Source of the DNA: Clostridia bacterium
GTDB lineage: Bacteria > Bacillota > Clostridia > Christensenellales > QALW01
Reading direction: 5' to 3'
DNA length: 64,000 nt
NCBI GenBank assembly: GCA_045600705.1
Contig: JAZRYL010000042.1
Location: 15,833 to 79,832, forward strand
Below, in pieces: positions 36,463-56,304 of this stretch (the first letter of the stretch is position 1; every line of letters begins with the position of its first letter). Below the pieces are notes generated by a model, which did not search any database, was not told where the DNA came from, and worked only from the letters and a program-made list of their open reading frames with translations. The position numbers were made by a program, and so were the translations under genes.

Positions 36463-36618
36463 GAAAAATAAAAGGGCACAGATTTACATTGGCGTGACTT
36501 TAAGAATGTTACGCTAACGTAAAACTGTGCCCAGACGGTCGGCATATAAGGTTCCCGCTCCCATGCAGTTGCCTGCTTTGCGAATTTTTTTCGCATTTCC
36601 GTCAGTAACGGGGACACA
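36463..36618 (-). promoter_or_regulatory. ZTP (pfl-motif) riboswitch with overlapping intrinsic terminator
   Basis: Minus-strand 5' subdomain CCCCGUUACUGACGG..UGGGAGCGGGAAC and 3' subdomain CCGACCGUCUGGGCA. The pseudoknot pair GACGG/CCGUC covaries relative to the usual GGCG/CGCC. The terminator GGGCACAG..CUGUGCCC-UUUUAUUUUU reuses the GGGCA of the aptamer. Confidence 0.72.
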
Positions 36619-36621
36619 TAA

Positions 36622-39572: not shown

Positions 39573-39601
39573 TTGACAAGTATAAAAAACGATGATACAA
39601 T
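39573..39601 (+). promoter_or_regulatory. sigma-A type promoter directly upstream of c-di-GMP riboswitch 1
   Basis: TTGACA, 17 nt, TACAAT. The aptamer starts about 20 nt downstream. Confidence 0.65.
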
Positions 39602-39623
39602 TCAGGTACAAAATTTAAGAACA

Positions 39624-39700
39624 TTGCCAAACCCGTGGAAACATGGGGACGGAAAGCTCAGGAGTCTAAAGCATAATATGCAATGACAGTCCGGTTGCAA
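39624..39700 (+). promoter_or_regulatory. cyclic-di-GMP-I (GEMM-I) riboswitch aptamer 1
   Basis: UUGCCAAAC-CCCGUG-GAAA-CAUGGG-GACGGAAAGC-UCAGGAGUCUAAAGCAUAAUAUGCAAUGACAGUCCGG-UUGCAA. It has the GNRA-capped first hairpin, a GACGNAAAGC core, a CUAAA receptor-like bulge and closing helix UUGC/GCAA, as in the Vc2-type consensus. Confidence 0.75.
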
Positions 39701-39755
39701 AATAAAGATTTTTTGCACGGGCTGCTTTTTTATTGCCCGTGGAGAGGAGACCATT

Positions 39756-40949: not shown

Positions 40950-41021
40950 TATCTGTTTCTTATCGTAAAAAGAACATCTAAACCCATGTGGATATCTTAG
41001 GATTTATCTTGTATGAATAAT

Positions 41022-41068
41022 CGGCCACACAGGTACACAGTTCTTGTGTGCCTGTGGCTGATTTTTTT
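41022..41068 (+). terminator. intrinsic terminator after the secreted-protein gene
   Basis: CGGCCACACAGGTACACAG..TGTGTGCCTGTGGCTG followed by ATTTTTTT. Confidence 0.75.
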
Positions 41069-41156
41069 CACCGAATAAAATCAGAATATTACAGTTGTGT
41101 TACACAACGTGAAAAAACATAAAAATTAACGTATTTTATTGAAATGTGGTGCTTTT

Positions 41157-42698
41157 ATGGACGGATTTAAGAAATCACTTTTTGGCGGATATAAAAAGAA
41201 AGCCGTTGATAACGCTATGAACGAAATCAACGAAAAACTTAAAGATTGCCAGAACGACAACATATATCTTAAAAGAACTTCCGAGGAGTCTATTTCGAGA
41301 GCAACCGAACTTGAAAAGAAACTTCAGGAGTTAAGCGCAGAGAATATCAGACTTCAAAGCGAAACCGACAAGTTCAAAAATGAGCAGGAATGGTACAAAA
41401 TCGAAACCGAAAGAGCCCGTAACGAACAGAATGCCATTAGGTCCGAAAAGGAAAGATTCGTTCAGGAACGTGAGAAATTTGCTCAGGAATTGGAACTTTG
41501 CAGACAGGAATTGCAGAACAACAAGCAAGAACTTGCCAAAGCAAAGCAGGACCTTGCACAGGCAAAGCAGGAACAGTATTCACGTCCTGCTGAGCGTTCC
41601 GAAAACGTGGACGTATATAAGAATATTGAAAAGATTTACAGACGTGCTTACGGTACCGGCCACGAAATCGTTGCAGAGTCAAAAGAAGTTGCTCAGGAAA
41701 TGCTCACAAAGGTTGATGAACGTTTCGATAAGACTATGGGCGACTCCACACAGATTGTAAACGATTACCAGGCAATTTATGAGGACCTTGAAAAGCTTAT
41801 TACCGCACTTTCGGCAGATATTTCCTGCGTGCAGAAAAATGCTGATGTGGTAATGAAAAAGGCACAGACGTTCTTGGGTGTTTATGACGAACTCGGAAGC
41901 GTTGTAAAAGCCGCTAAAACAAAGAACGAGGATATGCTTGCAATTTACGAATCGGATATCTCCGAATTTGTTGACAGTTGTGCCGTTCAGGCAAAACTTC
42001 AGAGCCAGACAGAAACATCCGATTCAACACAGAACGAAGCTGAAAAGCCCGTTGAAACAGTTGAAGCATTTGCCGAGCAGACCTTGAACGTTGCCGAAAA
42101 CAATGCTGAAACGGCTCCCGAATCATTTGAACAGAGCAATTTCAGAGTAATTCCGGCACATATTCCGTACGAAAGCGAACCCGTTCGCCGTGCGGATACC
42201 GAATTTAACAATACTCCCGCTTATGCGACAAACGTAAACAATGCACCCGTATATACCGCACATGCAACACCTGTTTACAGTGCGCCTGCATACACAACGC
42301 CGGTAAATAATGCGCCTGCATACGCAGTACCCGCAGCACCGGCAAATAATACACCTGCATACACTGCACCCGCAACGCCGGTAAATAATGCGCCTGCTTA
42401 TACCGAAAATGCTGATTCCACCGTTAATACGGCAGAAAATGTAGCGGCAAATGCGGCAGTAATCAATGCGGTACGCATGGCAGTTGCCGATAACAACACA
42501 CAGGAATCACCTGCACAGAGCGCGGCAGATACCGCTGCACAGAGCGCAGCACCTGCAAATCAGCCGGCTTCTCAGCCGAGCGCAAACAACAATGCCCGCA
42601 GTACTGACTTTACACAGTTCGGCAGAAAGAGCCGTGTTTCCTCAGAGGAACGCAGTGAACTGCTCAGAAAGGCACTGCTTAAAAACGGCGGCAGGTAA
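41157..42698 (+). CDS. DivIVA-like coiled-coil protein with low-complexity Ala/Pro/Asn/Tyr-repeat tail
   Basis: N-terminus MDGFKKSLFGGYKKKAVDNAMNEI resembles the DivIVA F..(R/G)GY....V motif. A long heptad region follows (QELELCRQELQNNKQELAKAKQDLAQAKQEQ), then about 7 copies of (T/N)P(V)NNAPAYT. The track start at 41139 is a TTG; the ATG at 41157 is preferred. Confidence 0.55.
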   Translation: MDGFKKSLFGGYKKKAVDNAMNEINEKLKDCQNDNIYLKRTSEESISRATELEKKLQELSAENIRLQSETDKFKNEQEWYKIETERARNEQNAIRSEKERFVQEREKFAQELELCRQELQNNKQELAKAKQDLAQAKQEQYSRPAERSENVDVYKNIEKIYRRAYGTGHEIVAESKEVAQEMLTKVDERFDKTMGDSTQIVNDYQAIYEDLEKLITALSADISCVQKNADVVMKKAQTFLGVYDELGSVVKAAKTKNEDMLAIYESDISEFVDSCAVQAKLQSQTETSDSTQNEAEKPVETVEAFAEQTLNVAENNAETAPESFEQSNFRVIPAHIPYESEPVRRADTEFNNTPAYATNVNNAPVYTAHATPVYSAPAYTTPVNNAPAYAVPAAPANNTPAYTAPATPVNNAPAYTENADSTVNTAENVAANAAVINAVRMAVADNNTQESPAQSAADTAAQSAAPANQPASQPSANNNARSTDFTQFGRKSRVSSEERSELLRKALLKNGGR

Positions 42699-42729
42699 TA
42701 AAAAAGCCGTTTTTCAAAAAAAGTAAAAA

Positions 42730-42801
42730 GGCAAAACACGTGAAAGCGTGTGACGCAAAGTTGTGAATCTAAAACCGAAAGGTCATGATAGTCAAACTGC
42801 A
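42730..42801 (+). promoter_or_regulatory. cyclic-di-GMP-I (GEMM-I)-like riboswitch aptamer 2
   Basis: GGCAAAAC-ACGU-GAAA-GCGUGU-GACGCAAAG-UUGUGAAUCUAAAACCGAAAGGUCAUGAUAGUCAAAC-UGCA. The architecture matches aptamer 1, with compensatory changes in both hairpins. The closing helix is weak (GCA/UGC). Confidence 0.6.
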
Positions 42802-42848
42802 CTAATAAAGGGTTACTATACTTTATTTGTGCAGTTTTTTCTATTTTT
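42794..42848 (+). terminator. intrinsic terminator / expression platform of riboswitch 2
   Basis: AAACTGCAC (42794-42802, shared with the aptamer 3' strand) pairs with GTGCAGTTT (42829-42837), followed by TTTCTATTTTT. The RBS AAAAGGAG of the lipoprotein gene follows. Confidence 0.7.
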
Positions 42849-42876
42849 CTGAACTGAAAAGGAGTTTTTTTGCATT

Positions 42877-43548
42877 ATGGAAAAAGCAAAACTGTTTTTT
42901 CAAAAGGCATTCAAAAGAACAAAAGCAATCGGATTGGTATTGGTGCTTGTGATGCTTACGGGAATGCTTTGTTCGTGTAACAATGTAAATCCCAATGTCG
43001 GCACCGATAAAGAAGAAACGAACAAAAACAATTACACTTCGTCCACATCAAAGGTTGATAAATCGGTTCCGGAATATGTCAACGGCGACGACCTTGCCAA
43101 CCGCAGTTACGAATTAAGTTTTTTGCTTGCGCAAAAGAAGTTCAATTCGCCCAATGAAATAGGTGTAAATGCACTTGTACAGTATTCGTTCTGTCACCTT
43201 TACTACGATAATTTGATTGAAATTCCCACCAACGGAACTCAGTTGAGAACGGCTACCGTGGATGAAATGGCGGATGAAATCAAAAAGGAATTCGGTGACG
43301 TTACCACGGATATAAAGACTTCCGATTTGTACAACGGAGCGAAAAACTGCTTCGAAATGTGGGAACCGCCCTACGGCAGAGATATTTACTACGATGTTGA
43401 AGTATCGGGACAGGGAAACGACACATACAAAGCGAACACAACGTTCTATACGGATTCAACAAAAGAAGAAATTCTCGGAAGAACGATTTTAACGGTTAAA
43501 GACGTAAATCAAAAAATGGTAATACAAAGATTAACATCAAGTAATTAA
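42877..43548 (+). CDS. putative lipoprotein, unknown function
   Basis: 223 aa with signal sequence KAIGLVLVLVMLTGMLCSCNN (lipobox-like L-C-S-C). First gene after riboswitch 2. Confidence 0.65.
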   Translation: MEKAKLFFQKAFKRTKAIGLVLVLVMLTGMLCSCNNVNPNVGTDKEETNKNNYTSSTSKVDKSVPEYVNGDDLANRSYELSFLLAQKKFNSPNEIGVNALVQYSFCHLYYDNLIEIPTNGTQLRTATVDEMADEIKKEFGDVTTDIKTSDLYNGAKNCFEMWEPPYGRDIYYDVEVSGQGNDTYKANTTFYTDSTKEEILGRTILTVKDVNQKMVIQRLTSSN

Positions 43549-43563
43549 ACGAGGTGCGAAACA

Positions 43564-43764
43564 ATGGATGAGTATTTATCAATAGAAGAATTAAAGAAAG
43601 AAAACCAGGAATTAAAGAACCTGCTTGCAAAAATTCTTAAAGCATACGACCTTGTAAGTGACGAACTTGAAGAGTATAAAATAAAGATTATGACTCAGCA
43701 GAACGCAACCGTAAGCAGTACGGACGACGTTAAAAAACTTTTGGAAAAGTATTCTCGCTTGTAA
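43564..43764 (+). CDS. small coiled-coil protein (66 aa), unknown function
   Basis: RBS GAGGTG. Heptad-rich sequence IEELKKENQELKNLLAKILKAY. Lies 15 nt after the previous gene and 12 nt before the next. Confidence 0.55.
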   Translation: MDEYLSIEELKKENQELKNLLAKILKAYDLVSDELEEYKIKIMTQQNATVSSTDDVKKLLEKYSRL

Positions 43765-43776
43765 GGTGAAAAACTA

Positions 43777-46008
43777 ATGAATAATGACGGACAGTTTTTG
43801 CAAAAATTAAAAGAATTCGGAAGCAAAATCAAAAAACAGGGCGACACTCTGATTTATTTTGAACTTGCGGTAGTTTTGACGGTAATAATCGTTGCCGTAA
43901 ACTATATGTTCCAATATACCGAGAATAAGATTTCAAACGCCAAATCGATAAAAGCGTGGGAATACGTTTACACCGACAGTGAAGACGAAAAATTCAACGG
44001 CGATTTGAGAAATGCCAATAACCTTGTTCCTATGGAAAAGGAAAAGCTTGGCTCCTATCTTCACGTTAAAGCGAAAATCGATGCGTCAGACAATGACAGA
44101 ACACTTATCGTTAATACGGACTATGCACCGATCAAAATAATTTTGAACGGCAAGGAAAGATACAATAACTACTACGGAAAAGCAGATTACGTGGGAAATT
44201 CGTACAATGCGATAAAAATTCCCGCTTCCTCTTCACCTACGGAAATACGTATTTCGGCACGTCTTCCGTTCTCCACTACGTTCACTATGCAGACGGTGGA
44301 GGGTGTGGCTCACCCCGACTTTTCGGTGGATGTACACATTATTTTTTCGGCGGTTGTAATCCTGCTTAGCATCGGATTTTTCGTATTTTCCGCAGTTATT
44401 AAGTCCGTTAAGCATAAAAAAATTAAATTTATCGCCGTGTTTGCGGCAATACTTGTTTACGGCATCGCTACGGCAGCTAAAGCGCTGACGCAGGATACCT
44501 ATTACGTAAATATGCCGAATTTCTATAACATTTCAGTGGCACTTGAAAACGTAAGTTTGGCTATTATTATGTTCATTTCGGCACGGCTTGTTTCAATGAA
44601 AAATAAGACTGTTTATGTGCTAATATTCGTCGATATTCTTGCAGCCGCGGCAACCTGCATCTTCACAAACCTGTGGATAGCAAGAATTTCGTTCATCGCT
44701 TCGGATATTCTTATACTGGGCACGCTTCTTTTGATGGTAAAAGAAAACTATCCTATGCTTGACAGACGTGTTCAGTACGCCAAAATCACATATCTTATGC
44801 TTCTTGCTTCGGTGATGATCCATGTTCTCTGCGGTATTATGATGAATACCGTGAGACTCAGAGTAACTTATTATTACTGCCAGAATATTATGATGGTCGT
44901 ATTCCTGTGCTATAACGTATTCGCTCAGATTGAAAAGACCATTGAATTCACCAATCCGGAAGAAATACAGCAAAAAATCAATCAGTACAATCTGTTTGTT
45001 GAAAAAGTTGCCGAACTGATTAAGAATATCATGGCGGTTAATACGGAAAACGAAATCTGCCGTGAGGCTTGCGAAGGTATTAGTTCTCTTTGCCATGAGA
45101 TGGGCAAGTTCGATGATGAAAATGAACTGACCGTTACCGCTTTAATTAAGGAAAACGGCGAGTACAGTACCATGTACAGTATCGGTAATCCCGGAACAAT
45201 AAACCCCTTTGTTGTGGAAAACCGCTGTCTTCTTGAAGAAAAGTTCTGCATTTATAACGAAACTTACTTCGATATGGTTTTCGTTACAGAAAATGACTTC
45301 CATATTATTGTTCACGTTGAAAACGTCAAGGACGGACTTGATAATTTCTTCATCAGCATTATGGACACGATTTTCAGTTGCGTTCGTGCAAAATACATTC
45401 GTATGACAGAAGAAGACGTTGACTGCATTGATGCAGATATGCAAATATTCGTAGACCTTGCCGAAAACTGTGAAAGCGGTACGGCGGACAACAACGAACA
45501 CCTCGGATCCGTTTGCTTCTATACCAAAACGATTATGGAACAAATGGGTTATCCCGAAGAAATTTGCGAAATCGTTTCAAAAGCCGCAATGCTTCACGAT
45601 ATCGGAAAAATCGCAATTCCTTTGGAAATCGGCTCAAAGGGCGCTCTGCTTAACGAGGAGGAGCGCACCATTATGAAAAAACACACCGACTTCGGATATT
45701 CACTTTTGTCGGTGTTCGACAGTGACTTCCTTATGGTCGCTTCCATGATTGCAAAGCACCACCACGAAAAGTATGACGGAACCGGCTATGCGGGCATCAA
45801 GGGCGAGGATATCAACGAATTCGCACGTATCGTATCCGTTTCCGACGTTATGGACGCACTTATGGCAAAGCGTTCGTATAAAGACCCGTGGCCCTTTGAA
45901 AAGGTTATGGATTATATTAAAGCAGGTTCGGGCAAAATGTTCGACCCCAAGGTAGTAGAAGCAACTCTTGCCTGCACGGAGATATTCAGAAGTAACACAG
46001 AAAAATAA
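43777..46008 (+). CDS. membrane sensor with extracytoplasmic domain, 7 TM helices and C-terminal HD-GYP-type c-di-GMP phosphodiesterase domain
   Basis: 743 aa: TM1, then about 150 aa outside, a 7-TM block, a linker, and HD-GYP signatures HLGSVCFYTK, AAMLHDIGKIAIP, KKHTDFGY and HHHEKYDGTGYAG (GYA in place of GYP). Confidence 0.8.
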   Translation: MNNDGQFLQKLKEFGSKIKKQGDTLIYFELAVVLTVIIVAVNYMFQYTENKISNAKSIKAWEYVYTDSEDEKFNGDLRNANNLVPMEKEKLGSYLHVKAKIDASDNDRTLIVNTDYAPIKIILNGKERYNNYYGKADYVGNSYNAIKIPASSSPTEIRISARLPFSTTFTMQTVEGVAHPDFSVDVHIIFSAVVILLSIGFFVFSAVIKSVKHKKIKFIAVFAAILVYGIATAAKALTQDTYYVNMPNFYNISVALENVSLAIIMFISARLVSMKNKTVYVLIFVDILAAAATCIFTNLWIARISFIASDILILGTLLLMVKENYPMLDRRVQYAKITYLMLLASVMIHVLCGIMMNTVRLRVTYYYCQNIMMVVFLCYNVFAQIEKTIEFTNPEEIQQKINQYNLFVEKVAELIKNIMAVNTENEICREACEGISSLCHEMGKFDDENELTVTALIKENGEYSTMYSIGNPGTINPFVVENRCLLEEKFCIYNETYFDMVFVTENDFHIIVHVENVKDGLDNFFISIMDTIFSCVRAKYIRMTEEDVDCIDADMQIFVDLAENCESGTADNNEHLGSVCFYTKTIMEQMGYPEEICEIVSKAAMLHDIGKIAIPLEIGSKGALLNEEERTIMKKHTDFGYSLLSVFDSDFLMVASMIAKHHHEKYDGTGYAGIKGEDINEFARIVSVSDVMDALMAKRSYKDPWPFEKVMDYIKAGSGKMFDPKVVEATLACTEIFRSNTEK

Positions 46009-46033
46009 TAAGTAATGCTACGGAGAATTGATA

Positions 46034-49000
46034 ATGGATGAAAATTTGAATGGCAATCAGCCGGAATTCACCGCTTCGACGGACGAAAACGGCGTTGCAC
46101 CGATAAATGAGCAGACCGCTGAAGGTTTTTCTGCTGAGAACGAGCAGACCGCAGAAGGTCTTTCCGCCGATGGCGAGCAGGTAGCCGAAAACGGTGTTCC
46201 TGCCGATGGCGAACAGGCAGCAAACGGCGTCAATCTTGCGGGAATGCAGGAAAACACCTCCGACCAGGTTGCGTTCAATCCGGAAGCGGAGCAGGAAAAG
46301 AAAACCGAAGATAAGGTGGCAAATGCCAAAAAGCATAAAAAGACCAAGTGGTTTTTTATAATTCCCTTGATATTTCTTATTCTTATTTCGTTACTGTTCA
46401 TCATTTGGCAGATAAGTCCCAAAAAGGGTATGAACGTATGCGTTCTTGACAAAACAATACTGACCGTTGAGGAAAACAACGATATCAATATTGATTCTGT
46501 TTACAGAAAGCATCAAGGACTGTTCTGGCTGCTTGAACAGCAGAAGTACGTTTTCCAGAACGGTGACTTCTATGATACAAAGCAGGACTATTTCGGACCT
46601 ATTCTTGACGAAGAAGGTCAGATAAAAGAGGAAAGAGCCCTTAAAGACCTTGATTATGAGCCGGATTTGATGTATGTTTCCGACGTGTACGGCGCAGTAA
46701 ACGACACCTACGGCTATTACGACAAGAACGACGCCAAAAATGCGGGTGTAACTGTCGATGAAATGTCGGTTATTTCCTACGCATACGAGAGCAATGCCAC
46801 AATCGTTGCGGAAATGGAACTTTTCAATTCCAACTTGAACAGTTCAATCCACTCTCAGCTTGCGAGTCTTTGCGGCGTTAAGCCCACCGGCTGGGTAGGA
46901 AGATACATTTACGATTTGCAGGATTTCACCGACGTTCCCGACTGGGCTCCTCCCATGTACGAACAGCAGGAAGGTGTTGAGTGGCAGTTCTCAGGCCCCG
47001 GAATTTTGCTTGTTTCCGATGAAAAAATCATCATTCTTGAGCAGAAAACCGACTTTGAATCACGAAATCTTTTGCAGATTTTCATAACAGACGAATACAA
47101 AAAAGAATTTAAGCACTGTGACCGTGTTAATTTCTATAACTGGTTCGAAATCGTAGAGCCGGTGGGAAATACTGAGGTTATTGCAAACTTTGAATTCGAT
47201 GTAAACGCAACCGGTATGGAAAAACTTAAAGGCGTGCTCAGGTCGCCTGTATTCTGTGCCGCAACACGCAAGGTAAGTACGGGAAAGGCTCCCGTTTACT
47301 ACTTTGCCGCCGACTTTAACGATTACGTTTCGCATCTTAACTACAACAGATTTATGTTTGCAAACACGGTTTACAGATGGATAGCATTTGACCGTCAGGG
47401 CGATATTACCAACTTCTATTGGAACTTCTATGACCCGCTGATGACGAAAATTCTTTCCTATGTGAACACCCGTGAAATTATCAAAAATCCCGACGAAAAC
47501 GCCGCTAATGTTGACAGAACAACGCATTTCAGCGTAAGCGACAACGGATTCAGAATAAAGGGCGAAGACGATTGGGAAAAAATATCGTTTAATGCGGTAA
47601 GCATAAACGCCCACGAACCGGGCAAGAGTACCTATTCACGAAATTACGGTTTTTACGAAAACCTTGTCCGTGAAACGGTTACAATGGGTGCGAACTGTAT
47701 TTACGCAAAGGATATTCTTCCGCCCGAGTTTTACCGTGCAATATACGCAAACAATTCTTCCGAAAAAGCAAAAAAGGTGTACTTGATACAAAACATCACT
47801 CCTCCGGACGAAATTTCTCAGGAGGAATGGCAGAAAAAAGCGGAAGCGGCAGTTAATGTTCTTAACGGAAAAGGCTCTTATTCCATCGGAAACACCGACG
47901 ACGCAATAAGATACTTCATTGACACTTCCAACTTCGTTGCGGCGATAACCTTCGACGGCTTCGACCCGCAGCAGCAACTTTCATATAGCGGTGAGTTCGC
48001 TTCCGGCGAAGGTCAGACCGGCTATCCTGCGTTTATTTACGATACTATTCAAAAGTACGCCAAGGACGAATTCGATATGCAGGTTCCCATCGGAATAAAT
48101 CTTCCGGCAGGGCTTGTTAAGGGAACCGGACTTGAGGGCGAAAACGCAATAAGCATCAGCGATATTATCACTGACAGCGAATGTAAAAACAATTATTCCT
48201 TTACGGTTATTTCATATAAGGACACTAACGGACTTGTTACCGAGCAGGGCGAAAAAATCACTACTGACGGTGACAAAATGGGTGGCGCATTCGCACTTTT
48301 CCGTGAGGCCACAAACGGACGCTATATGGTAAATAACATCGTGTTCTCGGCAAATTGCGGAACGGGTAACGACGATAAAGTAACCGAAAAGCAACAAGGT
48401 CAGCAGACGGTTGCCGCATTAAGAATGGCAAAGGGCTCCGGCGCACTGTGTGCGATTGCTTCCGACCTTAACGACGACTGGTCGGAACTTTCCGATAGTA
48501 TGTATGCGTTCACATCGCCTTTGGAAAACAACAGTATGTGGCAGAACGTGGCAGACCCTGCACAGACAACGGGCTTTATCGCACTCGACCCCGAAGAACC
48601 CGAAAAAGTCGGAATAAATATGACCGATGACGACCGTGTGCAGATGCTTTCACTGTCGTCCAACGAAGGATATTTCTATCTGACCGCACAGTTGCTTACG
48701 GATATTGACTACGAAAAAGAAAAACTGTTTATCGGTATCGACACATATCAGCGAAACGACGGTGAATACTACTATTCAAAGGAATATACACCTACATCGC
48801 TTTCCGGAATGGAATTCGTGCTTGCCTTTGACAGTAAACAGCAGGCAGGGTTGTACGTTACTTCAACATACGACAAAAAAGCGGGAAGATATGCTACAAA
48901 AGAAAGTTATACCGGTGATTACGGTCTTGTTTCGCAACTGACCTACGGCGGTTTCTCCTCGGTTGACAATCAGTTCTATCAGTCAGGTTCTACGATTTAC

Positions 49001-49297
49001 ATTCGTATTCCTTGGGCGTGGCTGAACGTTACCGACCCGTCACAGAAAATCGTTATCAACAACGACGGTGAAATTTCCGGTCAGGCAAAAACGGTCACCA
49101 CAAACGGTGCAGTCGTTTCCGTACTGATTGCAGATAAGCAAACAAAGGACCAGTTGTATCTGTTCCCCGAAACAAAACAGGAACCGTCCTACAAAACATA
49201 CAAGTGGGCAACGTGGGAAAAGGTTTCCTATTCAATGAGAGAAAAAGAAAGTTTTACAATTCTTAAAAACTACTTCAGTAAAGAAAACGGTAATTAG
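46034..49297 (+). CDS. large single-pass membrane protein, extracytoplasmic, degenerate paralogue of the two downstream glycosidase-like proteins
   Basis: About 1087 aa from the ATG at 46034. Acidic repeat N-terminus (ENEQTAEGFSA twice, DGEQ twice), then TM WFFIIPLIFLILISLLFIIW. Mid block SINAHEPGKS..MGANCIYAKDILPPEFYRAIY..KVYLIQNI and C-terminal block STIYIRIPWAWLNVTDPS align with the 51852 and 54074 products. Confidence 0.7.
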   Translation: MDENLNGNQPEFTASTDENGVAPINEQTAEGFSAENEQTAEGLSADGEQVAENGVPADGEQAANGVNLAGMQENTSDQVAFNPEAEQEKKTEDKVANAKKHKKTKWFFIIPLIFLILISLLFIIWQISPKKGMNVCVLDKTILTVEENNDINIDSVYRKHQGLFWLLEQQKYVFQNGDFYDTKQDYFGPILDEEGQIKEERALKDLDYEPDLMYVSDVYGAVNDTYGYYDKNDAKNAGVTVDEMSVISYAYESNATIVAEMELFNSNLNSSIHSQLASLCGVKPTGWVGRYIYDLQDFTDVPDWAPPMYEQQEGVEWQFSGPGILLVSDEKIIILEQKTDFESRNLLQIFITDEYKKEFKHCDRVNFYNWFEIVEPVGNTEVIANFEFDVNATGMEKLKGVLRSPVFCAATRKVSTGKAPVYYFAADFNDYVSHLNYNRFMFANTVYRWIAFDRQGDITNFYWNFYDPLMTKILSYVNTREIIKNPDENAANVDRTTHFSVSDNGFRIKGEDDWEKISFNAVSINAHEPGKSTYSRNYGFYENLVRETVTMGANCIYAKDILPPEFYRAIYANNSSEKAKKVYLIQNITPPDEISQEEWQKKAEAAVNVLNGKGSYSIGNTDDAIRYFIDTSNFVAAITFDGFDPQQQLSYSGEFASGEGQTGYPAFIYDTIQKYAKDEFDMQVPIGINLPAGLVKGTGLEGENAISISDIITDSECKNNYSFTVISYKDTNGLVTEQGEKITTDGDKMGGAFALFREATNGRYMVNNIVFSANCGTGNDDKVTEKQQGQQTVAALRMAKGSGALCAIASDLNDDWSELSDSMYAFTSPLENNSMWQNVADPAQTTGFIALDPEEPEKVGINMTDDDRVQMLSLSSNEGYFYLTAQLLTDIDYEKEKLFIGIDTYQRNDGEYYYSKEYTPTSLSGMEFVLAFDSKQQAGLYVTSTYDKKAGRYATKESYTGDYGLVSQLTYGGFSSVDNQFYQSGSTIYIRIPWAWLNVTDPSQKIVINNDGEISGQAKTVTTNGAVVSVLIADKQTKDQLYLFPETKQEPSYKTYKWATWEKVSYSMREKESFTILKNYFSKENGN

Positions 49298-49314
49298 AAA
49301 ACCGTCACAAAGGG

Positions 49315-50406
49315 GTGAATTTATTGCATTACGAGTTAATCGCAATTTTATGCGTTTTGTTCTGCCTGTTCATACTTGCGCTGGAATATCTGTGGCTCGC
49401 CTCCCTTGCAAAAAGGCAGGAGGACGATGCGAAAAAGTACGATACCATTTCGCAAAAAGTGTACAGCATCGTTGAAGGAATTTTGTACAGTCCTTCCGAG
49501 GCAAGCAGAAAAAACGAAATAAAAGAACTTAAAAAAATAATGAAGGATGACGTTCGCACCTTTGAAATCATCAATGCTCAGCTTTGCTTCTGGGACGAAT
49601 ACGGCGAAGATGATGCATTCGTGAACAAGCAGGAAGTCATTGATGCGGTTTACGAAGAACTTAAACCTATCGAACTTTATGCAAAAATTCTTAAGAAAAA
49701 GGATAAGTATAAAATCGGTTACGCCTGCCGCCGACTTGCTGACTTCGATGCTTACGATTACCTTAACGACATTTACGACCTTTCCAAATCAAAGAACCGT
49801 AACGTTTCGTACAGTGCGGCAATGGCACTTTCAAGACTCGGCTACACTGACGGCGTTGCCGAATACATTCTTGACATTCAGGACGACAAAAAGTATTCCT
49901 GCCGTATCGTAAACGAAATTTTCGATACATTCAGTTCCGACCGTGCAGAACTTGCCGAAATTCTTTTGGAAAAATGCAACAATTATATGAAAGCGGTTAT
50001 TATCAAGGCCATTGCGGCATACAAGTTCGAACAGTTCGAAAAAATGTACATTGACGGAACGGTCAGCAAGGATATGCAGATGCGTATTGCCTGCATTAAA
50101 GCCCTTGGCTATCTGGCAAAACGTGAAAACGAACACATTCTTGCAATTGCGGCAAAGGATAAGGACTGGGTAGTTCGCTGCGCCGCCATTGACGGACTGA
50201 AACGTCTTGATACCGTAACTGCAATCAACTGCGTTAAAGAAGGAGTCAAAGACAAGGAGTGGTGGGTTCGCCAGAATGCGGCACGTGCCCTTGCCGATAT
50301 GAACGTAAACATTTCCGTAATCGAAGACATTTTGAGCGGATACGACAAATATGCTTCCGATGCGGCAAAATATGCACTTTACCGCCATGTAAACCTTAAT
50401 CACTAA
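49315..50406 (+). CDS. membrane-anchored HEAT-repeat protein
   Basis: 363 aa with N-terminal TM LIAILCVLFCLFILALEYLWLA. Repeated HEAT/PBS-lyase-like units: YSAAMALSRLGYTDG, MRIACIKALGYLAKRE, WVVRCAAIDGLKRLDT, WWVRQNAARALADM. Start uncertain (GTG 49315 or TTG 49324). Confidence 0.7.
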   Translation: MNLLHYELIAILCVLFCLFILALEYLWLASLAKRQEDDAKKYDTISQKVYSIVEGILYSPSEASRKNEIKELKKIMKDDVRTFEIINAQLCFWDEYGEDDAFVNKQEVIDAVYEELKPIELYAKILKKKDKYKIGYACRRLADFDAYDYLNDIYDLSKSKNRNVSYSAAMALSRLGYTDGVAEYILDIQDDKKYSCRIVNEIFDTFSSDRAELAEILLEKCNNYMKAVIIKAIAAYKFEQFEKMYIDGTVSKDMQMRIACIKALGYLAKRENEHILAIAAKDKDWVVRCAAIDGLKRLDTVTAINCVKEGVKDKEWWVRQNAARALADMNVNISVIEDILSGYDKYASDAAKYALYRHVNLNH

Positions 50407-50442
50407 AGTATGATTCCACAATCATGGAAAGAATAGGTAACT

Positions 50443-51855
50443 ATGAGTTTTATTACTATTGTACGAGCATTTATATCATTCTTTAACTATTTCTGTATGG
50501 CATTTACATTGCTGCTCAGCGTGATATATATTGTTCAGTTGATAATTTCATTATTTTCCGTAACGAAAAACGACAAATACCGTCAGTCCAACGACTTCGG
50601 ACGGTACGTTGACAGTGAAAATATTCTTCCTATTTCGCTTCTTATACCTGCGTATAACGAACAGGAAAATATCGTGCAGAACATTAAATCGCTTATGACC
50701 ATTGACTATCCCGAATTTGAAATATGCGTTGTAAACGACGGTTCTACGGACAGAACTCACGACCTTATCGTTGAGGCGTTCCACCTTTATAAAATTGAAT
50801 CTTCCTTTAAGACCTCCATACCCACGCAGGAGGTTCGAGGCATTTATTACAATACCGAATATCCCAACCTTATCTACGTTGATAAGGAAAACGGCGGTAA
50901 ATCCGATGCTCTTAATGCAGGAATAAACGTTTCATCGTATCCGCTGTTCGCCTGCCTTGATGCGGACTCCCGTATCGAGCCGGACGCTCTGCTTAAACTT
51001 TCAACGGAATTCTTGAAAAACTCCGATACTATCGTTGCCGGCGGACTTGTTCGTATTGCCAACGGCTTCAAAATCAAGGACGGCGTAGTCAGCGAATTTA
51101 CAATGCCGCCCAAAATGGTTGAACGTTTCCAAATCGTTGAATATTACCGTTCTTTCCTTTCGGGAAGAGTAGGATGGGGCGCCGCTAACGCAATGCTTAT
51201 CGTTTCGGGCGCATTCGGTGTATTCAGAAAATCCTCCGTTATCGAGGTAGGCGGCTACAAGACGAATACCATCGGTGAGGATATGGAAATTGTCGTTCGT
51301 TTGCACAAATATTACAGAAGTCACCATAAAAAATACAAGGTTATTTTCTGTGAAGACTCGGTTTGCTGGACTCAGGGCCCCATGTCAATGAAGGATATCC
51401 GAAGCCAGCGCCGTCGTTGGCAGATAGGTCTGCTTGATACACTTTTAACACACAAAACAATGTTCTTTAACATCCGCTACGGCATTGTAGGTTTGCTTGC
51501 AATTCCGTACAACTGGATATTCGAGCTTCTCGGCGCCGTTATCGAGGTTTTGGGTTATGCGCTCATACCGTTCTCGCTGATAATGGGCGAATTGAATATG
51601 TTCTTCTTCATAATTTACTTCCTGCTTGCGGTGCTTTTGGGTATTATCCTTTCAATGGGAAGTCTTGTTCTTGAACAGTTCACGAGAAAATCCATTATGA
51701 CCGCAAAACAGTGCCTTATGCTTTCAATCTATACGATTCTTGAAAACTTCGGCTACCGTCAAGCGATTACAATTTTCCGTGTTGAGGGAATACTTAAATA
51801 CCGTAAACTTCGCAGAACGTGGGGTAAGATTCAAAGAAAGGGTATTGAACAATGA
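50443..51855 (+). CDS. processive family-2 glycosyltransferase, membrane-embedded synthase (PgaC/IcaA/NodC/BcsA-core-like)
   Basis: 470 aa with an N-terminal TM. GT-A core: LLIPAYNEQENI..VVNDGSTDRT, GGKSDALNAG, LDADSRIE, SGAFGVFRK, IGEDMEIVVRLH, QRRRWQIG. Three or four C-terminal TM helices and no PilZ-sized C-terminal domain. Confidence 0.85.
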   Translation: MSFITIVRAFISFFNYFCMAFTLLLSVIYIVQLIISLFSVTKNDKYRQSNDFGRYVDSENILPISLLIPAYNEQENIVQNIKSLMTIDYPEFEICVVNDGSTDRTHDLIVEAFHLYKIESSFKTSIPTQEVRGIYYNTEYPNLIYVDKENGGKSDALNAGINVSSYPLFACLDADSRIEPDALLKLSTEFLKNSDTIVAGGLVRIANGFKIKDGVVSEFTMPPKMVERFQIVEYYRSFLSGRVGWGAANAMLIVSGAFGVFRKSSVIEVGGYKTNTIGEDMEIVVRLHKYYRSHHKKYKVIFCEDSVCWTQGPMSMKDIRSQRRRWQIGLLDTLLTHKTMFFNIRYGIVGLLAIPYNWIFELLGAVIEVLGYALIPFSLIMGELNMFFFIIYFLLAVLLGIILSMGSLVLEQFTRKSIMTAKQCLMLSIYTILENFGYRQAITIFRVEGILKYRKLRRTWGKIQRKGIEQ

Positions 51856-54077
51856 AAAAAATTGCAATTTCAGTTATCGCAACTCTTTTGGTACTCGTAT
51901 TTCTTGCCCAAATCGGCGTTCTTGAAAGATTCGGAATTCACGGAATTTCCGTTTTCACCAAGAAAAAAGAAGACACTTCTTCTTCGTCGTCGGAAAATAC
52001 CGCAGAAACATATATTGATTCCACTACAAATGTAAGTTACCGCTTCAAAACAAAGGGTGACTACTTCTATCAGTATGTGGACGGCGATTGGGAACAGCTT
52101 TTTATGCGCGGCGTAAACATCGGTGCTACCGAACCCGCTTTGTTCCCCGGTGACCTTACCATTTCCTACGACAGTTATCTTCGCTGGTTCGGCTATATCA
52201 GCGAAATGAACGCAAACTGCGTTCGAATTTACACGCTTATGCCTCCGCAGTTCTATCAGGCATTGGCGGATTTTAACAAAAGTACAAAAAAGAACGTTTA
52301 CCTTTTCCAAGGAATTTGGGTAAACGAAGAAGATATTGAACGTCTTTCCGATGCGTATGCGGAAAACGAAAAAATTCTTAACGATTTCACCGCCGACGCA
52401 ATAAACCTGGTGGACGTTATTCACGGCAACGCAAAAGTGGCGGAAAGCCCCGGTGAAGCATCGGGTACCTACACCGCCGACGTTTCAAAATGGCTCGCAG
52501 GGTGGATTATCGGTATCGAATGGGACCCGAACTTCGTTATGAACACGGACCAGCAGCACCCGGACAAGAAAGATTTTGACGGTGAGTATCTGTACACACA
52601 GACCGCCTCACCTTTCGAAGCGTTCCTTTGTCGAGTGGGCAATTCAATGATAAAGTACGAAACGGATACCTATAATTTCCAAACTCCGCTTGCTTTCACA
52701 AACTGGATTACTACCGACCCGCTTACACACCCCAACGAACCCCACTTCGATGAGGATAAGGCAACGGTAAATACAGAAAACGTTAAGTACAGAGATTTTG
52801 GACCCGGTATGTTTGCTTCGTACCACATTTACCCGTACTATCCCGACAGTCTTAACTATCAGACAGACTATCTTCAGTACATTGACGAGGACGGCAACGT
52901 AAACACCTACCTTGCTTATCTTGAAGACCTTAAGCTTGCACACACTATGCCTATCATCGTTGCCGAATTCGGTATTCCCACCTCACGAGGCTTGGGCCAT
53001 AAGAGTGTTATGGGTTACGACCAGGGCGGCGTTGATGAGATGGACCAAGGCGAAATGATTATAAATATGCTCAGGTATATTGAAGATACTAAATATGCGG
53101 GAGCAATTATTTTCACATGGCAGGATGAATGGTTTAAGAGAACGTGGAACAACGTTATGTACGATATCGCTGACCGCCGTCCTTTCTGGACGAACATTCA
53201 GACAACGGAACAGTGCTTCGGCGTAATGGCATTCGACCCCGGTCAGGAAAAGTGCGTTTGCTACGTTGACGGCGAAACAAACGATTGGAATTCATTTTCA
53301 CCTGTGGTTTCAACGTCGCAGGGCGACCTTTATGTTACAAGCGACGAAAGATACGTGTATTTTATGGTGGATGCCAAGGACTACGACTTCGAAAACGATA
53401 CGCTTGTCATTCCCGTAAACACCATTGCAGACCAGGGAAACAGTGCGGCAACCGCTTACGGTGCACAGTTCGACAAGGATGCCGACTTCCTTATTTACAT
53501 CAACGGCAAGGAAGATTCCCATATCTTCGTTGACAGATATTACGATGCTTTCAACTACTATTTCCTTAACTCCAAAAAGCTCAGCGATATTCCCGAGGAA
53601 GAAAATGCCAACGTTAAAAACAGCGGTAATTTCGACATTATGCGCCTCTGCTACGGCTATAACCTTACCGTAAAGGGAACGGGCGAGGTGGTTACCGATA
53701 AGGCTTACGAAACGGGCAAACTTCTTTTCGGAAACGGCAATCCCGATGCGGAAAATTACAGGTCGTTAAGTGATTTCTGCTACAAAAACGGCAAACTTGA
53801 AATAAGAATTCCGTGGCAGCTTCTTAACATTATGGACCCGTCGGGCAAAAAGCAGATTTCCGATTTCTGGCAGACGCAGGTTATTTCGCCCCAGGATTAC
53901 ACGGAATTCAATATGGGCTTTGGGTACAGAAGCAACACAAGCACCGATACGCTTCAGGTTTCCCTTTCCGGCTCCTACGACTACAAAGCGTGGAATATGC
54001 CCACGTGGCACGAGCGTCTTAAACCTGCATATTATCAGTTGCAGGAATATCTTTCAAAATTCGTGGAGGAACAATGA
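51852..54077 (+). CDS. signal-anchored extracytoplasmic TIM-barrel glycosidase-like protein (paralogue A)
   Basis: 741 aa with TM ISVIATLLVLVFLAQIGVL. Blocks: RGVNIGATEP, EMNANCVRIYTLMPPQFYQAL, HPNEPHF, YHIYPYYPDS, VAEFGIPTSRG, FTWQDEWFKRTWN and C-terminal EIRIPWQLLNIMDPS. ATGA overlap with the GT2 gene. Confidence 0.7.
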   Translation: MKKIAISVIATLLVLVFLAQIGVLERFGIHGISVFTKKKEDTSSSSSENTAETYIDSTTNVSYRFKTKGDYFYQYVDGDWEQLFMRGVNIGATEPALFPGDLTISYDSYLRWFGYISEMNANCVRIYTLMPPQFYQALADFNKSTKKNVYLFQGIWVNEEDIERLSDAYAENEKILNDFTADAINLVDVIHGNAKVAESPGEASGTYTADVSKWLAGWIIGIEWDPNFVMNTDQQHPDKKDFDGEYLYTQTASPFEAFLCRVGNSMIKYETDTYNFQTPLAFTNWITTDPLTHPNEPHFDEDKATVNTENVKYRDFGPGMFASYHIYPYYPDSLNYQTDYLQYIDEDGNVNTYLAYLEDLKLAHTMPIIVAEFGIPTSRGLGHKSVMGYDQGGVDEMDQGEMIINMLRYIEDTKYAGAIIFTWQDEWFKRTWNNVMYDIADRRPFWTNIQTTEQCFGVMAFDPGQEKCVCYVDGETNDWNSFSPVVSTSQGDLYVTSDERYVYFMVDAKDYDFENDTLVIPVNTIADQGNSAATAYGAQFDKDADFLIYINGKEDSHIFVDRYYDAFNYYFLNSKKLSDIPEEENANVKNSGNFDIMRLCYGYNLTVKGTGEVVTDKAYETGKLLFGNGNPDAENYRSLSDFCYKNGKLEIRIPWQLLNIMDPSGKKQISDFWQTQVISPQDYTEFNMGFGYRSNTSTDTLQVSLSGSYDYKAWNMPTWHERLKPAYYQLQEYLSKFVEEQ

Positions 54078-56265: not shown

Positions 56266-56304
56266 AGCCCCCTGCGGATTGAACGCAGGGGGCTTTGCTG
56301 TTTT
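56266..56304. terminator. bidirectional terminator between the convergent operon and the giant gene
   Basis: AGCCCCCTGCG-GATTGAA-CGCAGGGGGCT followed by TTGCTGTTTT. Confidence 0.8.

What the first reader, a model, noticed from the sequence alone, without database searches (positions are those of the whole stretch)
42726..42848. Second GEMM-I-like c-di-GMP aptamer whose 3' strand is shared with an intrinsic terminator (predicted ON switch)
Seen:
- Bases 42730-42801 fold on paper into the two-hairpin GEMM-I layout. The first hairpin is ACGU-GAAA-GCGU, the core is GACGCAAAG, and the second hairpin has a CUAAAA bulge and an ACC-GAAA-GGU tip.
- Stem changes are compensatory relative to aptamer 1 at 39624-39700.
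- AAACUGCAC at the aptamer 3' edge is also the left arm of the terminator (GUGCAGUUU plus a U-run).

Inference: ligand-stabilised aptamer folding should prevent terminator formation, so high c-di-GMP would switch the operon on. The closing helix is weak, and I found no obvious promoter between the DivIVA-like gene and the aptamer. The element may therefore act intercistronically on read-through from 41157.
Basis: partly seen in the sequence, partly recalled or inferred. Interest (0 to 1): 0.66.

Follow-up and report, generated by a model that had tools for sequence, protein, structure and literature searches.

The report
c-di-GMP riboswitch that switches an operon on
This is a textbook class I c-di-GMP riboswitch whose end doubles as half of a transcription terminator, so high c-di-GMP should let RNA polymerase read into an eight-gene cell-envelope/polysaccharide operon; it is a well-built but ordinary example of a known kind.

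Summary
Rfam's c-di-GMP-I model (RF01051) matches window 42720-42804 (+) at 73.2 bits, against a gathering score of 35 (E 1.8e-12). The two hairpins, GAAA tetraloop, receptor and ligand-contact nucleotides are all present. A hairpin at 42794-42837 with a U-run at 42835-42840 follows (-18 kcal/mol, z -5.4). Its 5' arm reuses the last five paired bases of the aptamer (42794-42798) and the cytosine that should pair with the ligand (42800).

Eleven distinct related loci from gut and other metagenomes carry the same aptamer-plus-overlapping-terminator in front of the same operon. Both helices covary there. Aptamer and terminator exclude each other, so the ON-switch reading is supported. This is the design shown experimentally for Bc2 RNA of Bacillus thuringiensis.

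The controlled operon (42877-56233) encodes:
- two lipoproteins
- a membrane HD-GYP protein
- a HEAT-repeat protein
- a PgaC/IcaA-like GT2 synthase
- a 66-aa protein and two large proteins, none with a family match

No sigma-70-type promoter lies upstream in this window, although eight relatives have one. Read-through from gene 41157-42698 is therefore plausible but unproven. Ligand binding and termination control were not tested. Verdict: new member of a known kind, low interest.

The parts
42720..42804 (+). c-di-GMP-I (GEMM-I) aptamer
   Evidence: RF01051 at 73.2 bits (gathering score 35), E 1.8e-12, full-length match. Its 21 pairs are 96.4% paired in 12 orthologous sequences. Fourteen pairs have changes on both sides, and 0 of 500 shuffles reach this.
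42731..42756 (+). First helix (P2): GC/GC outer pairs, the ACACGU/GCGUGU stem and the GAAA tetraloop at 42742-42745
   Evidence: alignment. All six stem pairs show changes on both sides among the orthologs. GAAA is invariant.
42759..42798 (+). Second helix (P3), with tetraloop-receptor bases CUAAA (42769-42773) and AUG (42785-42787), and the tip ACC-GAAA-GGU (42774-42783)
   Evidence: alignment. Ten pairs are 96.7% paired, five of them with changes on both sides. The receptor columns are invariant in alignment A2.
42730..42730 (+). G equivalent to Vc2 G20, which reads one guanine of the ligand and decides c-di-GMP versus cGAMP
   Evidence: Model position 11 is G. The mapping to Vc2 uses the G20/C44/A47 spacing given in PMC4744006. 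The role of G20 versus A is from PMC6140456. C44, A47 and G83 equivalents are 42754, 42757 and 42791.
42800..42800 (+). C equivalent to Vc2 C92, which pairs with the second guanine of the ligand; it lies inside the terminator's 5' arm
   Evidence: Model position 83 is C, invariant in 12 sequences. The role of C92 is from PMC5888326 and PMC6140456.
42794..42802 (+). Switching segment AAACUGCAC. Bases 42794-42798 close P3 in the aptamer fold. The whole segment is the 5' arm of the terminator.
   Evidence: Alignment columns 82-86 pair with columns 40-45 in the aptamer and with 128-132 in the terminator. Both pairings hold at 4-5 of 5 positions in every sequence.
42794..42840 (+). Intrinsic terminator: lower stem 42794-42802/42829-42837, inner stem 42804-42810/42821-42827, U-run 42835-42840
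   Evidence: -18.0 kcal/mol, z -5.44. The lower stem is 94.4% paired in 12 sequences, and 5 of its 9 pairs have changes on both sides. A U-run of at least 6 follows the hairpin in every ortholog.
42858..42879 (+). Ribosome-binding site AAAGGAG (42858-42864) and ATG (42877) of the first regulated gene
   Evidence: Read from the sequence.
42877..43548 (+). First regulated gene: 223-aa predicted lipoprotein of unknown function
   Evidence: Signal peptide plus an LCSC lipobox-like motif. No Pfam or NCBIfam match. AF2 model with pLDDT 83, but no Foldseek PDB match below E 0.01. 13 proteins matched in the big protein database: the window's own sequence plus 12 homologues.
43564..43764 (+). 66-aa helical/coiled-coil-like protein
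   Evidence: ORF is conserved in all orthologous operons.
43777..46008 (+). 743-aa membrane protein: extracytoplasmic N-domain, about 7 hydrophobic (TM-like) segments, and a C-terminal HD-GYP-type domain with GYA in place of GYP
   Evidence: Pfam HD_5 8.6e-25 and HD 1.7e-13. A hydropathy scan gives about seven hydrophobic segments that could span the membrane.
46028..49297 (+). 1089-aa single-pass membrane protein with no family match
49315..50406 (+). 363-aa HEAT-repeat protein with an N-terminal membrane anchor
   Evidence: Pfam HEAT_2 4.4e-23. Hydropathy.
50443..51855 (+). 470-aa membrane GT2 glycosyltransferase of the processive-synthase type
   Evidence: Pfam Glycos_transf_2 2.4e-24 and Glyco_trans_2_3. 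The best NCBIfam hit is PgaC_IcaA at 125 bits, below its cut-off of 422. Cellulose synthase BcsA chains match in the PDB.
51852..56233 (+). Two further genes with overlapping stop/start: a 741-aa signal-anchored protein and a 719-aa lipoprotein, neither with a family match
   Evidence: The only hint is a weak GH113 match (E 0.02) in the 719-aa protein.
56266..56294 (.). Strong terminator hairpin that closes the operon, facing a convergent 1996-aa gene
   Evidence: 11-bp stem with 9 G-C pairs.
41157..42698 (+). Upstream co-directional gene (513-aa coiled-coil protein) that ends 21 nt before the aptamer; possible source of the transcript
   Evidence: No promoter-like site lies between it and the aptamer. 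Only a weak hairpin, AAAAACGGC-16 nt-GCCGUUUUU at 42681-42714 (-10.2 kcal/mol), lies in between.

Best explanation
Window 42720-42840 encodes a class I c-di-GMP riboswitch (GEMM-I, RF01051) joined to an intrinsic terminator. It works as a transcriptional ON switch.

**How it should work**
- As the RNA is made, the aptamer folds first (42720-42804).
- With c-di-GMP bound, the base of helix P3 (42794-42798) and the ligand-pairing cytosine (42800) are held in place. The terminator's lower stem cannot form, so polymerase reads on into the operon.
- Without ligand, the newly made 3' arm (42829-42837) captures 42794-42802. The full hairpin plus U-run forms and transcription stops near 42840. That leaves a product of about 121 nt, counted from the start of the aptamer match.

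**What it controls**
The controlled unit is the eight-gene operon 42877-56233. Its products are all membrane or secreted proteins, or are unassignable. They include a PgaC/IcaA-like GT2 synthase and an HD-GYP-type protein. The inferred output is a c-di-GMP-induced envelope or exopolysaccharide function. If the HD-GYP domain is an active phosphodiesterase, the operon also carries a built-in brake on c-di-GMP.

**Shown versus inferred**
- Shown here: family membership by covariance model, the conserved nucleotides, the mutually exclusive folds, and their conservation and covariation in relatives.
- Inferred: ligand binding, the direction of control in vivo, the operon's function, and the origin of the transcript. 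For the origin I favour read-through from gene 41157-42698 at about 55%.
For: **Aptamer**
- RF01051 scores 73.2 bits against a gathering score of 35.
- Equivalents of G20, C44, A47, G83 and C92, the GAAA tetraloop and the receptor are all present. All but the G20 equivalent are invariant in the 12 sequences; that one is A in L091 (residue roles from PMC4744006, PMC5888326 and PMC6140456).
- Aptamer pairs are 96.4% paired, with 14 pairs changed on both sides. No shuffle of 500 reaches this, and slid controls give 24-37% paired.

**Terminator**
- -18 kcal/mol, z -5.4.
- The lower stem is 94.4% paired, and 5 of 9 pairs are changed on both sides.

**Mutual exclusion**
- The shared bases 42794-42798 satisfy both pairings in every sequence.
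- The aptamer is the minimum-energy fold up to about 42829. The terminator fold is -32.0 kcal/mol. The enforced aptamer gives -27.5, or -20.8 when 42799-42800 are also blocked.

**Conservation**
- The same architecture sits in front of the same operon in 11 other distinct loci. Their lipoprotein is 30-65% identical to the window's.

**Precedent**
- Bc2 RNA is a class I riboswitch with an adjacent terminator. It gives a terminated product of about 121 nt and shows c-di-GMP-dependent read-through in vitro and in vivo (PMC4933901).

**Operon**
- Gene gaps are 12-36 nt or overlapping. The scan's stronger internal + strand matches (7-bp stem at 54126-54142; 5-bp, 4-G-C stems at 44434-44447 and 53315-53327) are not followed by a U-run, and terminator-like matches occur at the chance rate (17 found, 15.8 expected). 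A strong terminator lies at 56266-56294.
Against: - No experiment was possible. Binding and termination control are predictions.
- No convincing closing helix P1 exists: only AGU/ACU, three pairs, with no covariation.
- With the aptamer held, a shortened hairpin (GCAC/GUGC plus the A-U inner stem) could still form two bases before the U-run. It could cause some termination unless the ligand also holds 42799-42800.
- No promoter was found for this copy.
- In C. difficile, class I c-di-GMP riboswitches are described as OFF switches (PMC11477304). The direction therefore cannot be taken from the class alone.
- A sizeable group of related operons lacks this second aptamer altogether, so it is not essential to the operon.
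Confidence: 0.85

Rival explanations
1. The riboswitch and mechanism are the same, but it sits at the 5' end of its own transcript. That transcript would start from an unrecognised promoter just upstream of 42720, either weak or dependent on an alternative sigma factor, rather than coming from read-through of gene 41157-42698.
For: Eight relatives have a canonical -35/-10 pair upstream of the aptamer. In L081, L086, L088 and L091 the -10 ends 6-7 nt before the aptamer match (13 nt in L120); in L121, L124 and L129 it lies 22-58 nt upstream. One of them is L081, where it lies in the homologous 57-nt spacer after the same upstream gene. A weak hairpin plus U5 spans the stop codon of the upstream gene and could end its transcript.
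Against: No + strand match was found in the 270 nt upstream, even at 4/6 plus 3/6 hexamer matches. The positions that form TTGCAA and TAAAAT in L081 read CAGGTA and CAAAAA here. The hairpin has a 16-nt loop and only four G-C pairs, so it is a poor terminator.
Confidence: 0.4
2. The element is an OFF switch, in which c-di-GMP promotes termination, as described for class I riboswitches of C. difficile.
For: A review states that class I riboswitches in C. difficile act as transcriptional OFF switches (PMC11477304).
Against: An OFF design needs an anti-terminator that the aptamer disrupts. Here the aptamer strand is itself the terminator arm, so stabilising the aptamer can only remove the terminator. 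All 12 sequences keep this overlap.
Confidence: 0.03
3. The aptamer senses another cyclic dinucleotide (3'3'-cGAMP), or it is a decayed copy that no longer binds anything, leaving a constitutive terminator.
For: GEMM-I relatives with A in place of G20 bind cGAMP (PMC6140456). One orthologue (L091/L093) carries that A. The spacers of relatives that lack the aptamer keep a terminator alone.
Against: This copy has G at 42730 and every other conserved pocket and tertiary-contact base. It scores twice the gathering threshold.
Confidence: 0.04

Closest known systems
Bc2 RNA, the c-di-GMP-I riboswitch upstream of cap/cbpA in Bacillus thuringiensis (PMC4933901)
   Same: A class I aptamer followed directly by an intrinsic terminator next to the ORF. 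The terminated product is about 121 nt. c-di-GMP was shown there to give read-through ('on' switch, repression/de-repression). It controls a cell-surface function in a Firmicute.
   Different: Bc2 controls a single collagen-adhesin gene and has been tested experimentally. The element here controls an eight-gene operon with a GT2 synthase and an HD-GYP protein, has no recognisable promoter of its own, and is untested.
Vc2 RNA of Vibrio cholerae, the structural reference for GEMM-I (PDB 3IRW; as described in PMC4744006 and PMC6140456)
   Same: Two helices docked by a GAAA tetraloop and its receptor. Equivalents of G20, A47 and C92 and of the C44-G83 inter-helix pair are present at 42730, 42757, 42800 and 42754/42791.
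   Different: Vc2 has a defined P1 helix. Here P1 is at best 3 bp. The expression platform and host phylum also differ.
Cd1 and the other class I c-di-GMP riboswitches of Clostridioides difficile (PMC11477304, PMC4744006)
   Same: The same aptamer class, transcription-termination control, a Clostridia host, and many copies per genome.
   Different: They are described as OFF switches that repress, for example, the flagellar operon at high c-di-GMP. The architecture here is ON, a role that C. difficile gives to class II riboswitches.
GEMM-Ib cGAMP riboswitches (Gs1761; the bispecific Cbe 1-2 of Clostridium beijerinckii; PMC6140456)
   Same: The same fold and Rfam clan.
   Different: They carry A at the G20 position, whereas this element has G (42730). 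Only the orthologue in L091/L093 has A.

Membership tests
c-di-GMP-I riboswitch (GEMM-I, Rfam RF01051) | Covariance-model score at or above the curated gathering score | tested here: met
   73.2 bits against 35, E 1.8e-12, model positions 1-87 of 87.
c-di-GMP-I riboswitch (GEMM-I, Rfam RF01051) | Two adjacent helices (P2, P3) supported by covariation | tested here: met
   21 pairs are 96.4% paired in 12 distinct sequences. 14 pairs have changes on both sides. 0 of 500 shuffles reach this, and slid controls give 24-37%.
c-di-GMP-I riboswitch (GEMM-I, Rfam RF01051) | GNRA tetraloop on P2 and tetraloop receptor in P3 | tested here: met
   GAAA at 42742-42745 and the CUAA.../...AUG receptor bases are invariant across alignment A2. 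The docking itself is inferred.
c-di-GMP-I riboswitch (GEMM-I, Rfam RF01051) | Ligand-contact nucleotides G20, A47 and C92, and the inter-helix C44-G83 pair (Vc2 numbering) | tested here: met
   G42730, A42757, C42800 and C42754/G42791. The mapping uses the spacing given for Vc1/Vc2 in PMC4744006.
c-di-GMP-I riboswitch (GEMM-I, Rfam RF01051) | P1 helix formed by the 5' and 3' flanks | tested here: inconclusive
   Only AGU (42722-24) with ACU (42801-03) can pair. This is conserved in the closest relatives but shows no covariation. The Rfam model does not include P1.
c-di-GMP-I riboswitch (GEMM-I, Rfam RF01051) | Selective binding of c-di-GMP | not testable with these tools
   Needs in-line probing, ITC or a gel shift.
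Transcriptional ON riboswitch of the Bc2 type | Intrinsic terminator (stable hairpin plus U-run) between the aptamer and the ORF | tested here: met
   42794-42840, -18 kcal/mol, z -5.44. Present with at least 6 U in all 12 sequences. The stem covaries.
Transcriptional ON riboswitch of the Bc2 type | Aptamer and terminator are mutually exclusive because they share a strand | tested here: met
   42794-42798 pair in both folds, and 42800 lies in the ligand pocket and in the stem.
Transcriptional ON riboswitch of the Bc2 type | Ligand-dependent read-through | not testable with these tools
   Needs single-round transcription assays or reporters.
GEMM-Ib cGAMP riboswitch | Adenine at the position of Vc2 G20 | tested here: not met
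   G at 42730. The feature is as stated in PMC6140456.
Tandem riboswitch (several aptamers in one leader) | Aptamers adjacent within a single untranslated leader | tested here: not met
   The two aptamers are 3.1 kb apart. Two genes and a strong terminator (41021-41061 plus U7, -26 kcal/mol) separate them.

The most novel reading that the evidence does not exclude
In this genome the riboswitch has lost its own promoter and works between genes. Its terminator would be the normal 3' end of the mRNA for the upstream coiled-coil protein. c-di-GMP would convert that end into a gate that extends the transcript into a so far undescribed synthase-dependent envelope/polysaccharide operon of gut Clostridia. 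That operon holds a GT2 synthase, a HEAT-repeat protein, two lipoproteins and large proteins with no family match. It also encodes an HD-GYP enzyme that would feed back on the signal.
Probability: 0.3. Interest if true: 0.4.

Novelty: new member of a known kind. Interest (0 to 1): 0.22.

Why it matters
The element adds a cleanly built class I ON-type c-di-GMP riboswitch, well supported by comparison, to a class that in the best-studied Clostridium (C. difficile) is described as OFF-acting.

It also marks a conserved operon as an output of c-di-GMP signalling. That operon occurs in uncultured Clostridia, including human-gut metagenome contigs, and most of its proteins match no known family. This gives a concrete lead to a possible new exopolysaccharide or envelope system and a ready-made sensor part. 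It does not change what is known about how such riboswitches work.

Tried and rejected
1. **Genome scan with the 743-aa HD-GYP protein.** It returned only generic HD-GYP domain matches (32-48% identity over residues ~520-743). No orthologous operon was found, so the scan was wasted.
2. **Exact look-ups of the window's own lipoprotein.** They gave no contig and no name. The source organism stays unidentified beyond 'NCBI record, 109.5-kb contig'. The relatives are annotated as Clostridia/Firmicutes MAGs.
3. **Searches for the unassigned operon proteins.** Pfam, NCBIfam and PDB sequence searches gave nothing usable.
4. **AF2 model of the lipoprotein.** The model has pLDDT 83, but Foldseek against the PDB found no match below E 0.01. 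The best matches were IseA-like and NTF2-like.
5. **Promoter search, strict and loose.** Nothing was found upstream of the aptamer. I also looked by eye for a sigma-D-type pattern around GCCGTTTT, and the spacing does not fit.
6. **Two aptamers as a series circuit on one transcript.** Rejected for this window, because a strong terminator follows the first regulated gene.
7. **A decayed aptamer in relatives that lack the second aptamer.** A permissive Rfam search found no sub-threshold GEMM-I match there.
8. **A possible long-range pairing.** AGUAA (42722-26) can pair with UUACU in the terminator loop (100-nt fold). It is not conserved in the relatives and was dropped.

Full report
**1. The observation**

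A scan of the whole window against Rfam 15 at gathering thresholds gave four matches:
- c-di-GMP-I (RF01051) at 42720-42804 (+): 73.2 bits, gathering score 35, E 1.8e-12, model 1-87 of 87
- a second c-di-GMP-I at 39616-39702 (+): 69.9 bits
- a tRNA
- a ZMP/ZTP riboswitch on the other strand

In the model alignment every base pair of the finding's aptamer is a standard pair. The first helix is GC/GC plus ACACGU-GAAA-GCGUGU (42731-42756). The second runs from 42759 to 42798, with the CUAAA bulge and the ACC-GAAA-GGU tip.

Compared with the copy at 39616, all six pairs of the first hairpin differ yet still pair. So do the outer pair 12-37 and three pairs of the second helix.

**2. Pocket and tertiary contacts**

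PMC4744006 gives the Vc2 contacts as G20, A47 and C92. It also describes an inter-helix C-G pair conserved in all GEMM RNAs, with Vc1 equivalents G12, C36, A39. That spacing fixes the equivalents in the Rfam model at positions 11, 35, 38, 74 and 83. In the window these are G42730, C42754, A42757, G42791 and C42800.

G20 reads one guanine of the ligand, and C92 pairs with the other (PMC5888326 and PMC6140456). cGAMP-sensing relatives carry A at the G20 position, whereas this element has G. The GAAA tetraloop and the receptor bases are invariant in the relatives described below.

**3. The terminator and the overlap**

Bases 42794-42837 fold into a two-part hairpin:
- lower stem AAACUGCAC/GUGCAGUUU
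- inner stem AAUAAAG/CUUUAUU
- a run of six U at 42835-42840

The fold is -18.0 kcal/mol against -6.4 +/- 2.1 for shuffles, z -5.44.

Bases 42794-42798 are also the 3' strand of the last five pairs of the aptamer's second helix. C42800 is the ligand-pairing cytosine. The aptamer strand is thus the terminator arm itself.

Folding growing transcripts shows the Rfam aptamer structure as the minimum-energy fold up to about 42829. Once the 3' arm is present, the terminator takes over at -32.0 kcal/mol. The enforced aptamer gives -27.5 kcal/mol, or -20.8 when 42799-42800 are also kept unpaired as the bound ligand would do.

With the aptamer enforced but 42799-42802 free, a shortened hairpin can still form two bases before the U-run. 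This is a possible source of leakiness. It is also a reason why occupation of C42800 by the ligand matters.

**4. Relatives**

*How the loci were found.* The first regulated protein, a 223-aa lipoprotein, gave 13 hits in the large protein database: its own sequence plus 12 homologues. Their contigs carry the same operon. The gene order is lipoprotein, a 66-72-aa protein, a ~740-aa HD-GYP protein, a ~1000-1025-aa protein, a HEAT-repeat protein, a GT2 enzyme and a ~740-aa protein. A metagenome scan with the lipoprotein alignment added 38 loci, many from human-gut assemblies.

*Where the aptamer sits.* Rfam scans place a c-di-GMP-I aptamer (59.8-71.2 bits) directly upstream of the lipoprotein gene in 11 further distinct sequences: L081, L086, L088, L089, L091, L113, L120, L121, L124, L125 and L129.

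*The terminator overlap.* In every one the aptamer is followed by a hairpin and at least six U. The 5' arm of that hairpin begins inside the aptamer's last helix.

*Covariation, on the 12-sequence alignment A2.*
- Aptamer: 96.4% of cells are paired and 14 of 21 pairs have changes on both sides. No shuffle of 500 reaches this, and partners slid by 1-3 columns give 24-37% paired.
- Terminator lower stem: 94.4% paired and 5 of 9 pairs changed on both sides, against 29-52% for the slid controls.
- Shared columns: they satisfy both partners at 4-5 of 5 positions in every sequence. For example, AAACU pairs with AGUUGU and AGUUU in the window, AGGUU with AGCCGU and AACCU in L089, and AGACC with AGUUAU and GGUCU in L113.

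This three-way agreement is the strongest computational support for a switch between the two folds.

**5. Direction of control**

Stabilising the aptamer removes the terminator's arm, so the ligand should give read-through. An OFF design would need an intervening anti-terminator, and none is present.

The same layout was tested for Bc2 RNA of B. thuringiensis (PMC4933901). That element has a terminator adjacent to the ORF and a terminated product of about 121 nt. c-di-GMP, but not c-di-AMP, GTP or cGMP, increased read-through in vitro. High c-di-GMP de-repressed the gene in vivo.

A review of C. difficile states that class I riboswitches there are OFF and class II ON (PMC11477304). The direction is therefore a property of the expression platform and not of the class.

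**6. Where the transcript starts**

Eight relatives have a canonical promoter. In L081, L086, L088 and L091 its -10 box ends 6-7 nt before the aptamer match (13 nt in L120); in L121, L124 and L129 it lies 22-58 nt further upstream. In L086, L088 and L091 the upstream gene is divergent. One example is TTGCAA-17-TATAAT in L086. L081 has TTGCAA-17-TAAAAT, and there it lies in the spacer after a homologue of the window's upstream gene.

The window's spacer has the same length, but it reads CAGGTA and CAAAAA at those positions. Neither the strict scan nor my looser one over the 270 nt upstream finds a candidate.

The upstream gene (41157-42698, a coiled-coil protein) ends 21 nt before the aptamer. 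Only a weak hairpin spans its stop codon: a 9-bp stem with a 16-nt loop, -10.2 kcal/mol.

I therefore favour read-through from that gene, at about 55%, but it is unproven. Transcription from the first riboswitch at 39616 is unlikely to reach this point. A strong terminator (41021-41061 plus seven U, -26 kcal/mol) follows the first regulated gene.

**7. What is controlled**

From 42877 to 56233, eight genes follow with gaps of 12-36 nt or overlapping ends. The scan's stronger internal + strand matches lack a U-run, and matches occur at the chance rate (17 found, 15.8 expected). A strong hairpin at 56266-56294 closes the unit.

| Gene | Product | Evidence |
|---|---|---|
| 42877-43548 | 223-aa lipoprotein, unknown function | |
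| 43564-43764 | 66-aa helical protein | |
| 43777-46008 | 743-aa membrane protein, about seven hydrophobic (TM-like) segments, C-terminal HD-GYP-type domain | |
| 46028-49297 | 1089-aa single-pass membrane protein, no family match | |
| 49315-50406 | anchored HEAT-repeat protein | |
| 50443-51855 | GT2 enzyme of the processive-synthase type | |
| 51852-54077 | 741-aa signal-anchored protein, no match | |
| 54074-56233 | 719-aa lipoprotein, no match | |

In the HD-GYP-type domain the HD and HHE motifs are intact and GYP is replaced by GYA. Pfam HD_5 scores 8.6e-25. For the GT2 enzyme the best NCBIfam hit is PgaC/IcaA at 125 bits, below its cut-off, and BcsA chains match in the PDB.

A c-di-GMP-induced exopolysaccharide or envelope system with its own phosphodiesterase is the natural reading. 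It remains an inference from domain content only.

**8. Variation among relatives**

A sizeable group of related operons lacks this second aptamer: L084/L092, L094, L095-L102, L105-L108, L116 and L123. Most of this group (all except L092 and L094, where none is seen within the 1.5 kb of upstream flank fetched) has a c-di-GMP-I aptamer about 1.4 kb upstream (about 2 kb in L084). It sits in front of a homologue of the secreted protein that the window's first riboswitch controls.

The spacer before the lipoprotein gene in these loci holds a plain terminator. A permissive Rfam search finds no weak GEMM-I match there. The second riboswitch is thus an optional, lineage-specific addition.

**9. Verdict**

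The finding is real and correctly interpreted. It is a new, well-supported member of a thoroughly known riboswitch class, with a known type of expression platform. The parts still open are the origin of the transcript in this genome and the function of the operon.

Noticed in passing
window 39573-39760: The first c-di-GMP-I aptamer (39616-39702, 69.9 bits) has its own near-consensus promoter (TTGACA-17-TACAAT, 39573-39601). It has the same ON-type design: a terminator CAGUCCG...CGGGCUG plus six U that overlaps the aptamer's 3' strand. It sits before a secreted 397-aa protein gene with no family match (39756-40949).
   Followed up: partly
window 36522-36619 (- strand): A ZMP/ZTP riboswitch (RF01750) scores 47.4 bits against a gathering score of 39. 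It lies upstream of a minus-strand ORF that ends at 35724.
   Followed up: no
L091 3927-4015 (identical in L093 1230-1318): This orthologous aptamer has A instead of G at the position equivalent to Vc2 G20. That is the signature of cGAMP-sensing or bispecific GEMM-Ib riboswitches. It stands in front of the same operon (PMC6140456).
   Followed up: partly
L084 2291-2416; L092, L094, L095/L098/L102, L101/L116, L105 (about 150 nt before the lipoprotein gene): These related operons lack the second aptamer but keep a terminator. In L084/L092 its 5' arm (GACUGCAC) resembles the aptamer's 3' end. In several loci (L094, L101/L116, L105; only its first half shows in the stretches printed for L095/L098/L102) a conserved ACUGUCAGC...GGCUGAC hairpin precedes the terminator, right after the stop codon of the upstream gene. 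No Rfam match appears even at E up to 1.
   Followed up: partly
L086 4240-4327 (-), L091 2477-2565 (-), L084 1-70 (-), L089 8553-8637 (+): Further c-di-GMP-I aptamers crowd the neighbourhood of the orthologous operons. Some stand before ~670-aa proteins with faint beta-helix matches. These organisms seem to use the class heavily for surface proteins.
   Followed up: no
window 41021-41068 and 41084-41098: A strong terminator (-26 kcal/mol, seven U) follows the 397-aa gene. Just downstream is a perfect inverted repeat, GTTGTGT-T-ACACAAC, in the otherwise promoter-poor leader of the coiled-coil gene. It could be an operator.
   Followed up: no
window 43777-46008: The HD-GYP-type protein has GYA in place of GYP. 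It carries a large N-terminal region (an extracytoplasmic domain and about seven hydrophobic, TM-like segments) with no family match. It cannot be told from sequence whether it is an active phosphodiesterase or a receptor.
   Followed up: partly
window 56323-62313 (- strand): A 1996-aa ORF converges on the operon's end and was not examined.
   Followed up: no
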